Shown here: positions 47,132 through 49,291 of the stretch, in pieces
Position numbering within the stretch: position 1 is the stretch's first letter
Layout of the letters: each line of letters opens with the position of its first letter
Assembly (NCBI GenBank): GCA_001818235.1
Contig: MHJY01000010.1
Coordinates: 17,609 to 81,608 of the forward strand
Length of the DNA: 64,000 nt
From: Candidatus Jacksonbacteria bacterium RIFOXYB2_FULL_44_15
Lineage (GTDB): Bacteria > Patescibacteriota > Patescibacteriia > UBA9629
Direction: 5' to 3'
Program-made: the position numbers and the translations under genes
The notes under the pieces: model-generated
Seen by the model: only the letters and a program-made list of their open reading frames with translations
Databases searched by the model: none
What the model was told of the DNA's origin: nothing

Positions 47132-49291
47132 ATGACAACCCAAACCATAACCGAAGAACAGCTTAATTTATACCAGTCGCTCTTTCGCGGCAGAACGGAT
47201 GTTTATGCCCGGTACTGGGAAAAAAACGGCCAGGCCAATTACAGCCCGGCTTACGACGTTAACTGGACGGCTTATAACAAATATAAATCAACCGGCGGAT
47301 CGTTTAAGGATTTTAAAGATAAAAAGCTAATTTTCTTAACGCCGGGCATTGTTAAAAAACATCTAATCGGTTCCCATGCCATTGGCATTTACCCCATACT
47401 GCAAGACAACACTTCGTATTTTATTGCGGCGGATTTTGACGGTAGCAATTGGCAACAGGATTGTAAAAATTCCATAGACGAGTGCCAAAAGGCTGGCCTG
47501 CATGCTTACCTTGAACGGTCCAGATCCGGCAACGGCGGCCACGTCTGGATGTTTTTTGAAACACCTTATCCTTGCTACAAAAGCAGACAGGTGGTTTTGG
47601 AAATAATCCGCCGGGCGTTAAAGTTATCGGAGTTCGACAAGGAGGTCAGTTTTGACCGTTTATTTCCAAACCAAGACAGTTTAGCCAAAGAAGGATTTGG
47701 AAACCTTATTGCCATTCCCATGCAAGGCCAAGCTACCAGGCTAAGCAATACGCTATTCTTAAATCCTGAAACTTTTCAGCCTTATTCCGATCAATGGGCT
47801 TTTTTGCAAACAATCCATAAGCATACAATTGCCGAGCTTGAATCAGCTTATGCAAATGTGCTTAATAAAACTGTCAGCTTCACGCCGGAAGTGCCAGGCA
47901 CTTCATCAATCAGTTTAATTTTAAACAGCAAAATCGTTTTAAATCGTTCCGAGCTAACCCCCCTGCTTATCCATTTCCTGAAAGAAAAGCTGAATTTTAT
48001 CAGCACCGAATATTTGACAAAGAAGCGACTGGGAAAGTCCGTTTACAAAGTCCAAAAGTTTTTTAAGCTACTTGAGGAAAACGGCGATGATGTTTTATTG
48101 CCACGGGGATTTTTAAGCCAGCTTATTTCTTTTTTGCGCAATAACGGGATTGCTTACCAACTTAAAGAACAGCGACCGCAAATATTGGAGGTAAAATTTA
48201 CCAGCAACATTAAACTTTTGCCCGCACAACAGCCAATAGTGGGAAAAGCCTTGGAAGTAGATAGCGGCGTTATAGTTGCTCCTTCCGGTAGCGGAAAGAC
48301 TATAATCGGACTGGAAATTATCGCCCAAAGAAAATTGCCGGCCTTAATCCTTGTCCACCGCAAACAGTTGCTTGACCAGTGGATTGAACGGACGCAGTCG
48401 TTTTTGGAAATCCCTAAAAAAGACATAGGACAATACTACTCGGTTAAGAAAAAGACCGGGGAGCAAATTACCGTAGCCATGATGCAGACATTGGTTCGGA
48501 TCGGCAATTTTGCTGAATTGCAAAATAAATTCGGTACGATCATCGTAGACGAATGCCACCATACTCCAGCCAAGACTTTCCGCGAGGTTATTGGCCAACT
48601 TAACCCCAAATACATTTACGGCCTTACCGCTACGCCCAAGCGCAAACATAATGACGAACCGTTGATTTACATGTTTATTGGCAACATCATCGCCCAAATG
48701 GAACATGCACCGGAAATAATAGCTGAAACCCCTGAGTTGTCTTACAAATCAGTTAAGACGCAAATCATTATCCGGGAAACCAATCTGGAAGTCCCTTTCA
48801 AATTTACGACCGATAACTTTCAGCTTTTGGCCAAACTTATCTGCTTTGACACTAATCGTAACCAGATGATCGTCAAAGACATTCAGGAGCAAACCAGTCA
48901 GGGCAAAAAAGTCTTGTTTCTTTCGGAACGCCGTGACCACTTGGAAATTTTAAGCCTTTACCTCAAAGGCTTGTGCGAAACCATTACCATATCCGGTGAG
49001 GACTCTAACGCCAAACGAGCAATTAAACTAAAGCAAGTCCAAACCGGCCATTACCAGGCCATTCTTTCCACCGGCCAGTTTTTCGGCGAAGGATTGGATA
49101 TCCCAGGTATTGATTGCCTAATTATCGCTTTCCCGTTTTCTTTTGAAGGCAAGCTTATCCAATACATCGGCCGCCTGCGTGGCAAAGACAACCAGAAAAT
49201 CATTATTGATTACGAGGACAAAAAAATCGCCTTTTTGGAAAGGCAATTTAAACGACGGAAAAGGTATTACAATAAAATCTCCAAGTCTTAA
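47132..49291 (+). CDS. Primase-polymerase (PrimPol/AEP-like) N-terminal domain fused to an SF2 DEAD/DEAH-type helicase
   Basis: Motif I IAADFDG, motif II SGNGGHVWMFF, motif III region DRLFPNQD...GFGNLIAIP. It is followed by Walker A VIVAPSGSGKT, DECH box (IVDECHH), TAT-like LTATPKR, and a HELICc motif VI (QYIGRLRG). Confidence 0.55.
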   Translation: MTTQTITEEQLNLYQSLFRGRTDVYARYWEKNGQANYSPAYDVNWTAYNKYKSTGGSFKDFKDKKLIFLTPGIVKKHLIGSHAIGIYPILQDNTSYFIAADFDGSNWQQDCKNSIDECQKAGLHAYLERSRSGNGGHVWMFFETPYPCYKSRQVVLEIIRRALKLSEFDKEVSFDRLFPNQDSLAKEGFGNLIAIPMQGQATRLSNTLFLNPETFQPYSDQWAFLQTIHKHTIAELESAYANVLNKTVSFTPEVPGTSSISLILNSKIVLNRSELTPLLIHFLKEKLNFISTEYLTKKRLGKSVYKVQKFFKLLEENGDDVLLPRGFLSQLISFLRNNGIAYQLKEQRPQILEVKFTSNIKLLPAQQPIVGKALEVDSGVIVAPSGSGKTIIGLEIIAQRKLPALILVHRKQLLDQWIERTQSFLEIPKKDIGQYYSVKKKTGEQITVAMMQTLVRIGNFAELQNKFGTIIVDECHHTPAKTFREVIGQLNPKYIYGLTATPKRKHNDEPLIYMFIGNIIAQMEHAPEIIAETPELSYKSVKTQIIIRETNLEVPFKFTTDNFQLLAKLICFDTNRNQMIVKDIQEQTSQGKKVLFLSERRDHLEILSLYLKGLCETITISGEDSNAKRAIKLKQVQTGHYQAILSTGQFFGEGLDIPGIDCLIIAFPFSFEGKLIQYIGRLRGKDNQKIIIDYEDKKIAFLERQFKRRKRYYNKISKS

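What the first reader, a model, noticed from the sequence alone, without database searches (positions are those of the whole stretch)
47132..49291. PrimPol (AEP) domain fused to an SF2 DECH-box helicase
The three AEP primase-polymerase motifs (DxD in IAADFDG; sGxGxH in SGNGGHVWMFF; a downstream acidic/hydrophobic motif III) precede a complete SF2 helicase core (GSGKT, DECH, TAT, motif VI QxxGRxxR). Primase-helicase fusions are usually PrimPol plus SF3/SF4 or MCM. A PrimPol plus SF2 (XPB/ResIII-like) combination is less common and is characteristic of plasmid or phage replication initiators or of defence-associated proteins. Its neighbours (Fic, TA) fit that context.
Basis: partly seen in the sequence, partly recalled or inferred. 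Interest (0 to 1): 0.6.

Follow-up and report, generated by a model that had tools for sequence, protein, structure and literature searches.

The report
Primase-polymerase fused to XPB-like helicase
This gene encodes a DNA primase-polymerase fused to an XPB-type helicase; it is an ordinary member of a large, already named family that travels between bacteria as a single gene and sits among anti-phage defence genes, and whose actual job has never been tested.

Summary
ORF 47132..49291 (+, 719 aa) has an N-terminal archaeo-eukaryotic primase (AEP) domain. It matches Pfam PF22548 "AEP-TOTE" (E 2e-77), and its predicted fold matches the CRISPR-associated Prim-Pol domain. A complete XPB/Rad25-like SF2 helicase follows. 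All catalytic motifs are invariant in 37 homologues.

The architecture is not rare or new. Zabrady et al. 2021 described it as "CAPP-Helicase", the most prevalent form of non-CRISPR CAPP homologues. NCBI's annotation pipeline names it. It occurs in at least 568 species genomes and in 876 of 5426 complete E. coli genomes.

The window (Candidatus Jacksonbacteria) has no TOTE partners (TPR-OB, TBP) within 10 kb, and no CRISPR array, cas genes or iterons were found. Full-length homologues are absent from 50,697 phage records.

Close relatives (81-88% identical) lie in unrelated flanks, and DNA similarity stops at the ORF ends. Immediate neighbours across 84 loci are often defence or toxin genes (SoFic-like Fic, AbiE, HipA, RhuM, AlbA_2). 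R-M genes lie beside it in several further loci. A convergent Fic gene is co-inherited with it in two genomes.

Best reading: a stand-alone, horizontally mobile defence-island gene in which an ATP-driven motor exposes template for de novo priming. The role is inferred, not shown.

The parts
47132..49291 (+). Complete ORF (719 aa plus stop): CAPP-like PrimPol fused to an XPB-like SF2 helicase
   Evidence: 100% identical to a hypothetical protein of Candidatus Jacksonbacteria RIFOXYB2_FULL_44_15
47156..47842 (+). AEP primase-polymerase domain (aa 9-237), Pfam PF22548 AEP-TOTE
   Evidence: E 2e-77; PADLOC PrimPol PDLC01465 E 1e-68; fold match to CAPP Prim-Pol 7nqd/7p9j
47426..47443 (+). AEP motif I AADFDG (D101, D103, metal ligands)
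   Evidence: invariant; aligns with AYDIDI of CAPP
47519..47548 (+). AEP motif II SRSGNGGHVW (S132, G133, G135, H137)
   Evidence: aligns with TGNRGYHIW of CAPP
47648..47677 (+). AEP motif III region SFDRLFPNQD (invariant D175 and D182; which of the two is the third acidic ligand is not settled)
47903..48169 (+). Small alpha/beta domain (aa 258-346) at the position of the N-terminal damage-recognition domain of archaeal XPB (inferred)
   Evidence: secondary structure; the Foldseek alignment to XPB spans about 486 columns of a 437-residue chain; phmmer aligns query 330-521 to AfXPB 63-247
48209..48697 (+). Helicase domain 1 (aa 360-522): Walker A APSGSGKT at 48278-48301, motif II VDECHH at 48545-48562, motif III GLTATP at 48620-48637
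48755..49288 (+). Helicase domain 2 (aa 542-719), with motif VI QYIGRLR at 49160-49180
47088..47116 (+). Promoter-like site TTGACT-17-TAAGAT, 16 nt upstream of the ATG (consensus match only; the count is not above chance for the region)
49788..50876 (-). Convergent wHTH-Fic gene (362 aa, SoFic-like, degenerate motif QPFEDGNKR), co-inherited with the PrimPol-helicase in another genome; a possible functional partner
   Evidence: SoFic E 1e-17; 80% identity to the Fic next to the 88% homologue
49293..49718 (-). Bles03/DUF1917-family gene within a 491-bp stretch present in the window, but absent in L094, between the PrimPol-helicase and Fic genes

Best explanation
The ORF encodes a typical member of the AEP-TOTE / 'CAPP-Helicase' family. 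It is a catalytically intact CAPP-type primase-polymerase fused through a small XPB-N-terminal-like domain to an XPB/Rad25-like SF2 ATPase. It is a stand-alone accessory gene of the Jacksonbacteria chromosome. It was acquired horizontally as a bare ORF, here together with a convergent Fic gene, and it belongs to the pool of genes that populate defence islands.

Proposed mechanism (inferred): the XPB-like motor uses ATP to translocate on or locally open duplex DNA, as XPB does. This presents single-stranded template to the fused Prim-Pol domain. Like the solved CAPP Prim-Pol domain, that domain can start a DNA chain de novo and extend it.

The most likely biological role is conflict with invading DNA. 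One route is unscheduled priming or synthesis on foreign DNA that derails its replication. Another is second-strand synthesis that makes incoming single-stranded DNA visible to neighbouring restriction systems. It may act in concert with the toxin-type genes (Fic, AbiE, HipA) that so often precede it.

Shown here: domain identity, conservation of the active sites, family size and distribution, horizontal mobility, and neighbourhood statistics. Inferred: enzymatic coupling, substrate, and the defence role.
For: Identity: PF22548 E 2e-77, ResIII and Helicase_C. PADLOC PrimPol 1e-68. Sequence matches to XPBII/Rad25 and to CAPP. Fold matches to XPB and to CAPP Prim-Pol, including its primer-initiation complex 7p9j.

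Active sites are invariant in 37 homologues.

Stand-alone status: no conserved partner gene across 88 loci. No conserved upstream DNA.

Mobility: homologues 81-88% identical lie in unrelated flanks, and DNA similarity begins and ends at the ORF.

Defence context: of 146 immediate neighbours from 84 loci, 10 are Fic (all SoFic-like in PADLOC), 9 AlbA_2, 7 AbiEii, 4 RhuM and 3 HipA. Fic-to-PrimPol gaps are 2-26 nt in 9 loci, which indicates an operon. Type I R-M genes are adjacent in L021, L047, L061 and L064. Z1-Dcm-Vsr and an MmeI-like R-M lie next to the two closest relatives. ShosTA lies next to the E. coli homologue.

The convergent Fic is co-inherited: 80% identity next to the 88% homologue.

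Precedent: CAPP Prim-Pols prime and extend DNA and bind Cas1-Cas2 (PMC8211822). A PrimPol-RT fusion (DRT7/UG10) is a validated phage-defence protein (PMC12439943, PMC9226505).
Against: No experiment on any PrimPol-SF2 fusion was found in the searchable literature, so the defence role rests on guilt by association.

In about half of the loci the immediate neighbours are not recognisable defence genes, and in CPR genomes the gene often lies between housekeeping genes.

The subfamily is unusually well conserved for a defence gene: mean column identity 69% across phyla.

Related PrimPols also act in DNA repair (AgaPP, PPRT).

The E. coli homologue lies in an island backbone next to AlpA, a YfjI/DUF3987 helicase and a Gp2-like Rep protein, which could mean a replication role there.

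The window's Fic has a degenerate active-site motif (Q instead of the catalytic H) and is convergent, not co-transcribed.
Confidence: 0.55

Rival explanations
1. DNA damage tolerance or repair factor. The XPB-like motor opens DNA at stalled forks or lesions, and the PrimPol reprimes or performs translesion or end-joining synthesis for the host chromosome. This would be a useful acquisition for a reduced CPR genome.
For: XPB is a repair and transcription helicase, and the best sequence and fold matches are XPB/Rad25 and RadD. Related bacterial PrimPols contribute to MMEJ repair (AgaPP) and to the oxidative-damage response (PPRT). RecQ lies directly downstream in several CPR loci (L025, L028, L040, L080). 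The high sequence conservation fits a housekeeping-like constraint.
Against: Distribution is patchy and horizontal: 16% of E. coli genomes, and unrelated flanks around 81-88% identical copies. Neighbours are dominated by R-M, Abi and toxin genes rather than repair genes. The RED motif of XPB is not conserved (TATPKRKHNDE against TATPERDDGKHE). The NCBIfam XPB equivalog score is 80 against a cut-off of 610.
Confidence: 0.2
2. Replication initiator (primase-helicase) of a plasmid, phage, satellite or integrative element, as the first reader proposed as one option.
For: Primase-helicase fusions are classic replicases of mobile elements (PMC5862659). The E. coli homologue lies beside an integrase, AlpA, a YfjI/DUF3987 helicase and an inovirus-type Gp2 Rep-like protein. 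A serine recombinase lies upstream in L094. An integrase is within 4 genes in 7 of 88 loci. 98 plasmid records carry a full-length homologue.
Against: 0 of 50,697 phage records have a match covering at least 80% of the protein, and viral structure hits cover only the helicase part. The plasmid homologues listed are on replicons of 47 kb to 1.4 Mb. There are no iterons or AT-rich origin-like repeats near the gene and no conserved flanking DNA. In the window and in several CPR loci the gene stands alone among housekeeping genes, with no element backbone.
Confidence: 0.12
3. A component of a bona fide TOTE conflict system (TPR-OB protein, TBP-domain protein, effector) or of a CRISPR-Cas adaptation module (CAPP), as the family names suggest.
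For: The Pfam family is named after TOTE systems. The PADLOC profile is labelled CRISPR-associated. The closest solved structure is a CRISPR-associated Prim-Pol.
Against: No TPR, S1/CSD/OB or TBP domain protein and no cas gene lies within 10 kb on either side. No CRISPR array is in the window. None of these families appears among the 25 most frequent families in 146 immediate neighbours of homologues.
Confidence: 0.04

Closest known systems
CAPP-Helicase type of CAPP_A primase-polymerases and their non-CRISPR homologues (Zabrady et al. 2021, PMC8211822)
   Same: [quoted passage not shown] The N-terminal domain aligns in sequence (E 4e-10 for the whole protein; 8e-12 for the domain alone) and in fold (TM 0.75-0.83) with the solved CAPP Prim-Pol domain. 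The paper states this is the most prevalent architecture of CAPP homologues outside CRISPR loci.
   Different: No CRISPR array or cas genes here. The paper places non-CRISPR homologues 'typically in MGEs and TEs', whereas this copy is a lone chromosomal gene in a CPR bacterium. The helicase fusion itself has no biochemical characterisation.
Pfam PF22548 AEP-TOTE / TOTE (TPR, OB, TBP, Effector) conflict systems (Aravind, Iyer and Burroughs 2022, as cited in PMC12458937)
   Same: Full-length, high-scoring match to the family profile (260 bits). NCBI's PGAP gives homologues the TOTE name.
   Different: None of the components that define a TOTE system is present in the window or in the immediate neighbourhoods sampled. 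Only the domain family is shared, not the system.
Archaeal XPB (Rad25/SSL2) helicase, partner of the Bax1 nuclease
   Same: Best sequence and fold match for aa ~250-719 (XPBII 6p4f E 9e-21; Foldseek 6p4o E 5e-21). The match spans the N-terminal domain plus both RecA-like domains. Motifs I, II (DECH), III and VI are present.
   Different: The RED motif is not conserved. The score is far below the NCBIfam XPB equivalog cut-off (80 against 610). No Bax1-like nuclease is present. It is fused to a primase-polymerase.
DRT7 / UG10 PPRT (PrimPol fused to a reverse transcriptase), a validated phage-defence protein
   Same: An AEP PrimPol domain embedded in a large single-polypeptide defence protein. 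The E. coli homologue of the window protein shows weak similarity to the UG10 AEP region (PADLOC RT_UG10_large E 1.5e-06). See for function.
   Different: The partner domain is an SF2 helicase, not an RT. No protein-primed synthesis is expected. The window protein itself did not hit the UG10 profiles at E<=1.
Primase-helicase replicases of mobile elements (pRN1 ORF904, P4 alpha, PrimPol-PV1 supergroup; PMC5862659)
   Same: AEP primase domain N-terminal to a helicase in one polypeptide.
   Different: Those use SF3, MCM or related helicases, often with PriCT and winged-helix origin-binding domains, and they sit in plasmids or viruses. Here the helicase is SF2 of XPB type, no PriCT or wHTH domain was detected, and there is no element or origin context.
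HsdR/Res subunits of type I/III restriction enzymes and type IV helicase-type restriction enzymes
   Same: ResIII-type SF2 motor. Same genomic company: RhuM, Fic, AbiE, HipA and AlbA_2 genes, and HsdM/HsdS next door in several loci.
   Different: There is no nuclease domain. A DNA-synthesising domain takes its place.

Membership tests
AEP superfamily (primase-polymerase) | Catalytic motif I DxD | tested here: met
   D101-F-D103 in AADFDG, invariant in 37 homologues; aligns with DID of CAPP
AEP superfamily (primase-polymerase) | Motif II sGxGxH | tested here: met
   S132-G-N-G-G-H137; S132, G133, G135 and H137 invariant
AEP superfamily (primase-polymerase) | Motif III acidic residue | tested here: met
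   Invariant D175 (and D182) in SFDRLFPNQD. Assigning D175 as the third ligand is inferred from spacing and from the CAPP alignment, which has a gap at this spot
AEP superfamily (primase-polymerase) | AEP catalytic fold | tested here: met
   Foldseek to CAPP Prim-Pol 7nqd/7nqe/7p9j/7nqf: TM 0.75-0.83 (target-normalised), rmsd 3.0-3.8 A, E about 1e-13; model pLDDT mostly 80-95 in this domain
Pfam PF22548 AEP-TOTE | Score above the gathering threshold over the whole profile | tested here: met
   260.3 bits against 27; profile positions 1-228 of 230
   Not among the Pfam hits at E<=1
TOTE conflict system | Neighbouring TPR-OB (S1/CSD) protein | tested here: not met
   Pfam scans of the 20 larger ORFs (72 aa and up) between 36972 and 57919 show none. 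The family is absent from the top families of 146 neighbours of homologues
TOTE conflict system | Neighbouring TBP-domain protein | tested here: not met
   Same scans
TOTE conflict system | Linked effector (nuclease, RNase H and similar) | tested here: inconclusive
   No nuclease gene is adjacent. A Fic gene is linked, but it is not known to be a TOTE effector. The original description (Annu Rev Biomed Data Sci 2022) could not be read
CAPP (CRISPR-associated primase-polymerase) | Location in a CRISPR-cas operon | tested here: not met
   No array in the window and no cas domains within 10 kb
CAPP (CRISPR-associated primase-polymerase) | CAPP_A-type Prim-Pol domain followed by a helicase (third CAPP_A type) | tested here: met
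   PDLC01465 1e-68; PDLC01101 2e-19; NF040561, 83 bits, below its cut-off of 200; definition
CAPP (CRISPR-associated primase-polymerase) | Interaction with Cas1-Cas2 | not testable with these tools
   Needs biochemistry; no cas1 or cas2 is in the window
XPB/Rad25/SSL2 helicases | SF2 motifs I, II, III and VI | tested here: met
   GSGKT, DECH, TAT and QxxGRxR, all invariant
XPB/Rad25/SSL2 helicases | RED motif after motif III | tested here: not met
   TATPKRKHNDE aligned without gaps to TATPERDDGKHE of S. tokodaii XPBII; only the Arg is kept
XPB/Rad25/SSL2 helicases | N-terminal damage-recognition domain and thumb insertion | tested here: inconclusive
   The Foldseek alignment covers the full XPB chain (about 486 columns against 437 residues), and a small alpha/beta domain lies at aa 258-346. 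No per-residue mapping was obtained
XPB/Rad25/SSL2 helicases | NCBIfam equivalog cut-off | tested here: not met
   NF045503: 80.4 bits against 610
Mobile-element primase-helicase replicases | SF3/SF4/MCM helicase, origin repeats, and residence in a plasmid or virus | tested here: not met
   The helicase is SF2. No iterons. 0 of 50,697 phage records with a full-length match. Chromosomal context

The most novel reading that the evidence does not exclude
The PrimPol-XPB fusion is the constant half of a modular two-part immune system. Its variable half is the toxin-type gene placed directly upstream or co-inherited with it: Fic/SoFic, AbiEi-AbiEii, HipBA, RhuM or AlbA_2-HATPase. The motor-primase would either sense foreign DNA and trigger the toxin, or make a DNA product on invading single-stranded or duplex DNA that licenses restriction. 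That would be a defence principle based on DNA synthesis by a primase rather than on cleavage.
Probability: 0.2. Interest if true: 0.65.

Novelty: new member of a known kind. Interest (0 to 1): 0.3.

Why it matters
As a discovery it matters little. The domain fusion is already in Pfam, in NCBI's annotation rules and in the CAPP literature, and this copy is a textbook member.

The family itself remains a sizeable gap in knowledge. It is a widespread enzyme, with 582 clusters at 50% identity below E 1e-30 for the AEP domain alone. It is present in one in six complete E. coli genomes, including O157:H7, and is common in CPR bacteria and Bacteroidota. It couples a dsDNA motor to de novo DNA priming, yet it has no tested function.

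The neighbourhood data gathered here give a concrete, testable hypothesis for anyone screening defence candidates. Those data are operonic coupling to SoFic-like Fic, AbiE and HipA genes, adjacency to R-M systems, and movement as a bare ORF.

Tried and rejected
(1) Origin-like repeats. TRF and repeat searches around the gene found only a 15/45-nt coding repeat at 46239-46403, inside the upstream secreted-protein gene (Pro/Thr-rich linker), plus chance-level short repeats. Rejected as iterons.

(2) CRISPR association. No array in the window and no cas domains within 10 kb.

(3) TOTE partners. None within 10 kb or among the immediate neighbours of homologues.

(4) A conserved 5' element or small upstream ORF travelling with the gene. 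The alignment of upstream regions from six loci shows no conservation before the start codon. blastn shows that similarity begins and ends at the ORF.

(5) Phage origin. tblastn against phages and Foldseek against BFVD match only the helicase part.

(6) Reading the original TOTE description (PubMed 35609893) and Iyer et al. 2005 (PMC1176014). Neither is held in the library, so the TOTE definition is taken second-hand from PMC12458937.

(7) The AFDB50 fold library was not available.

(8) Literature searches for an experimentally tested PrimPol-SF2 defence gene found none.

(9) The sigma-70 promoter and terminator scan was not above the shuffled expectation.
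Full report
**1. The observation**

The window holds one uninterrupted ORF at exactly 47132..49291 on the + strand (719 aa).
- AADFDG at aa 99-104
- SRSGNGGHVW at aa 130-139
- SFDRLFPNQD at aa 173-182
- APSGSGKT at aa 383-390
- VDECHH at aa 472-477
- GLTATP at aa 497-502
- QYIGRLR at aa 677-683

Pfam assigns aa 9-237 to PF22548 "AEP-TOTE" (E 2e-77, 260 bits against a cut-off of 27, profile positions 1-228 of 230). It assigns aa 376-504 to ResIII and aa 584-681 to Helicase_C. The domain belongs to a different, more recently defined AEP family.

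PADLOC's "PrimPol, CRISPR-associated" profile matches at 1e-68. Among solved structures, the helicase part is closest by sequence to archaeal XPBII/Rad25 (E 9e-21), and the N-terminal part to the CRISPR-associated Prim-Pol (CAPP) of Marinitoga (E 4e-10).

An AlphaFold2 model built on 37 homologues has mean pLDDT 79. Its N-terminal domain superposes on CAPP Prim-Pol structures, including the primer-initiation complex 7p9j (TM 0.75-0.83, rmsd 3.0-3.8 A). Residues from about 250 to 719 superpose on the whole archaeal XPB chain (6p4o, E 5e-21, about 486 aligned columns).

**2. Conservation of the active sites**

I aligned 37 homologues that are 57-88% identical to the query, from many CPR lineages and from Ignavibacteria. 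The following residues are invariant:
- D101, D103
- S132, G133, G135, H137
- D175, D182
- G386, G388, K389, T390
- D473, E474, C475, H477
- T499-A500-T501
- Q677, G680, R681, R683

Both enzymatic halves are therefore under selection as active enzymes. The XPB-specific RED motif is not kept: TATPKRKHNDE aligns to TATPERDDGKHE. The protein is also far below the NCBIfam XPB equivalog cut-off (80 against 610 bits). It is XPB-like, not an XPB orthologue.

**3. What is already known**

The protein is 100% identical to a "hypothetical protein" of Candidatus Jacksonbacteria RIFOXYB2_FULL_44_15. The top 120 database relatives all share the same architecture and a similar length of about 717 aa.

Zabrady et al. 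[quoted passage not shown] They state that the most prevalent architecture of CAPP homologues outside CRISPR loci is Prim-Pol plus helicase.

[quoted passage not shown] The original review could not be read. NCBI's PGAP now names homologues [quoted passage not shown].

The family is large:
- The AEP domain alone finds 582 clusters (at 50% identity) below E 1e-30 and 2494 below 1e-10.
- A scan of one genome per species found at least 568 species with a relative, mostly Patescibacteria, Bacteroidota and Ignavibacteria.
- A 33%-identical homologue is present in 876 of 5426 complete E. coli genomes, O157:H7 included.

**4. Surroundings in the window**

Within 10 kb on either side the genes are, in order:
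- EF-P, SSB, ribosomal protein S6, VanZ
- an Ig-repeat surface protein and a pilin-like protein
- endonuclease IV
- tRNA-Gln
- a secreted 636-aa protein
- the PrimPol-helicase
- a Bles03-family gene and a wHTH-Fic gene
- a pseudouridine synthase
- tRNA-Val
- NUDIX, TrmB-type regulators, a decarboxylase and a radical-SAM protein

There is no TPR, CSD/OB, TBP or cas gene, no CRISPR array and no iteron-like repeat. This is a lone accessory gene in a chromosome. It is not part of a TOTE system, a CRISPR locus or a recognisable mobile element.

**5. Comparative context**

I compared 88 loci: the window, 7 fetched by protein identity and 80 from species genomes. ORFs were called and the four genes on each side were clustered. 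No gene is a constant partner.

One position is nevertheless strikingly populated. The gene directly upstream on the same strand is one of the following:
- a Fic protein (10 loci at this position; 13 loci have a Fic within four genes)
- an AlbA_2/HATPase_c_4 protein (17 loci nearby)
- AbiEii, with its antitoxin AbiEi (10 loci)
- HipA with a small HTH partner (4 loci)
- RhuM (4 loci)

The gap between Fic and the PrimPol-helicase is 2-26 nt in 9 loci, and 0-4 nt for several AbiEii cases. That indicates operons.

Scanning the 146 immediate neighbours as a set confirms these counts: Fic 10, AlbA_2 9, AbiEii 7, RhuM 4, HipA 3. All ten Fic proteins match PADLOC's SoFic profile, which represents a single-gene defence system.

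Type I R-M genes (HsdR, HsdM-S fusions) lie beside the gene in L021, L047, L061 and L064. This set of companions (RhuM, Fic, AbiE, HipA, AlbA_2-ATPase) is, from my own knowledge of the defence-island literature, the same set that is typically embedded in type I R-M operons.

The E. coli homologue lies in an integrase/AlpA/YfjI/Gp2-like island. On plasmid NZ_CP010208 it lies directly next to a ShosTA system.

**6. Mobility**

The closest relatives sit in unrelated neighbourhoods:
- The 87% homologue, in a Doudnabacteria MAG, follows a Z1-Dcm-Vsr restriction-type cluster.
- The 81% homologue lies next to an MmeI-like type IIG enzyme.
- Of the two 88% homologues, L095 lies next to NYN and DUF6155 genes.
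- The other, L094, lies next to a serine recombinase and is followed by a convergent Fic.

blastn shows that nucleotide similarity to all four begins and ends at the ORF (about 79-84% identity). In L094 it also covers the Fic gene: window 49789-50895, 78.5% DNA identity and 80% protein identity. The window differs from L094 by a 491-bp stretch that carries the Bles03-family gene between the two.

Upstream DNA is not conserved. The transferable unit is therefore the bare ORF, here as a convergent pair with Fic.

Two different Fic subfamilies are linked to this protein. One is upstream and co-directional in many CPR loci. The other is downstream and convergent here and in L094. This argues for a functional link rather than accident, but it is not proof. 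The window's Fic also carries QPFEDGNKR instead of the canonical HPFx[D/E]GNGR motif.

**7. Testing the replication-initiator idea**

- No phage record out of 50,697 has a match covering 80% of the protein. Phage and BFVD hits are to SSL2/XPB-like helicases only.
- 98 plasmid records carry a full-length homologue at 31-34% identity. Those listed are on replicons of 47 kb to 1.4 Mb, and 218 of the 328 matching records are typed non-mobilizable.
- An integrase is within four genes in only 7 of 88 loci.
- The window has no origin-like repeats, and the helicase is not of the SF3/SF4/MCM type used by known AEP replicases (PMC5862659).

The E. coli island context keeps this rival alive for that subfamily (AlpA, DUF3987 helicase, Gp2-like Rep). 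It is weak for the window.

**8. Mechanism**

Established for relatives:
- CAPP Prim-Pol domains prime de novo and extend DNA (PMC8211822; PDB 7p9j is listed as a primer-initiation complex).
- XPB is an ATP-driven dsDNA translocase and helicase that opens duplex DNA (general knowledge of TFIIH and archaeal XPB-Bax1; the structures are listed).
- A PrimPol-RT fusion (DRT7/UG10) is a validated defence protein that also helps in oxidative-damage tolerance (PMC12439943, PMC9226505).
- A pAgo-associated PrimPol performs TLS and MMEJ (PMC11724360).

Inferred for this protein: the XPB-like motor opens or tracks along DNA and hands single-stranded template to the fused Prim-Pol, which then starts and extends DNA chains.

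Given the mobility and the company it keeps, the most likely role is conflict with invading DNA. This could be aberrant priming, or second-strand synthesis on foreign DNA, possibly coupled to the adjacent toxin or R-M genes. I put this at about 0.55. Host DNA-damage tolerance is at about 0.2, element replication at about 0.12, and true TOTE or CRISPR membership at about 0.04.

**9. Verdict**

The rarity claim and the replication-initiator option are not supported, and the defence-context option is. The feature is an ordinary member of a known, named and very abundant family whose function is still untested.

Novelty: new member of a known kind. Interest: 0.3. That score rests mainly on two points: the family is an unexplored, widespread candidate immune or repair enzyme, and the recurrent operonic link to Fic, AbiE and HipA genes offers a testable lead.

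Noticed in passing
window 51557-51579 and 52125-52147: Two perfect copies of a 23-nt sequence, CAAAATGTTCCACGTGGAACATT, which contains a perfect 20-nt palindrome. One copy lies inside the 5' part of the pseudouridine-synthase ORF. The other lies between tRNA-Val and the end of the NUDIX gene. 0 of 100 shuffles gave even one match. It could be an operator or hairpin site, or the ends of a small inserted segment that includes tRNA-Val.
   Followed up: partly
window 49788-50876 (- strand): The wHTH-Fic protein has QPFEDGNKR in place of the canonical Fic motif HPFx[D/E]GNGR, so the catalytic His is replaced by Gln. The same variant is kept in the 80%-identical copy in L094. The protein still matches PADLOC SoFic at 1e-17. 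It is possibly a non-AMPylating Fic.
   Followed up: partly
window 49293-49718 (- strand): A 141-aa Bles03/DUF1917-family protein (Pfam E 1e-21) is encoded in a 491-bp stretch that is absent between the same two genes in L094. A related small protein lies two genes downstream of the PrimPol-helicase in L047.
   Followed up: partly
L031, L034, L037, L039, L042-L046, L048-L068 and other Bacteroidota loci (for example L058:9983-12997, L039:10007-13396): Bacteroidota versions of the protein are 990-1140 aa. They carry a C-terminal extension of about 280-410 aa beyond the helicase that has no Pfam or PADLOC hit. This could be an unrecognised effector or regulatory domain.
   Followed up: partly
L035, L069, L074, L076, L084, L086: In six loci the AEP domain is a separate ORF of 148-236 aa directly upstream of the rest of the protein (gaps -107 to 105 nt). 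These are either frameshifted pseudogenes or assembly errors, or genuinely split versions.
   Followed up: no
window 46239-46403 (inside ORF 45050..46960, - strand): A degenerate 15/45-nt tandem repeat that encodes a Pro/Thr-rich linker (…PTPISPTPVSPTPIIPTEINPT…) in a 636-aa secreted protein with weak FecR and CBM6 matches. It is not an iteron array.
   Followed up: yes
L001/L003:4283-5658: In a Falkowbacteria genome, a diversity-generating-retroelement pair (RVT_1 reverse transcriptase plus bAvd) and an AbiEii gene lie just upstream of the PrimPol-helicase homologue.
   Followed up: no
L088 (E. coli plasmid NZ_CP010208) and L093 (O157:H7 chromosome): The E. coli homologue (786-788 aa as annotated; the window protein's match begins 46 codons into it) is always preceded by an 'inovirus-type Gp2' Rep-like gene and a YfjI/DUF3987 helicase in an AlpA/integrase island. 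In O157:H7 this island is the one that also carries the urease cluster.
   Followed up: partly
window 57308-57919 (- strand): A PRiA4_ORF3-family protein (Pfam E 3e-60), a family typical of plasmids, is encoded about 8 kb downstream. This is another sign of acquired DNA in the region.
   Followed up: no
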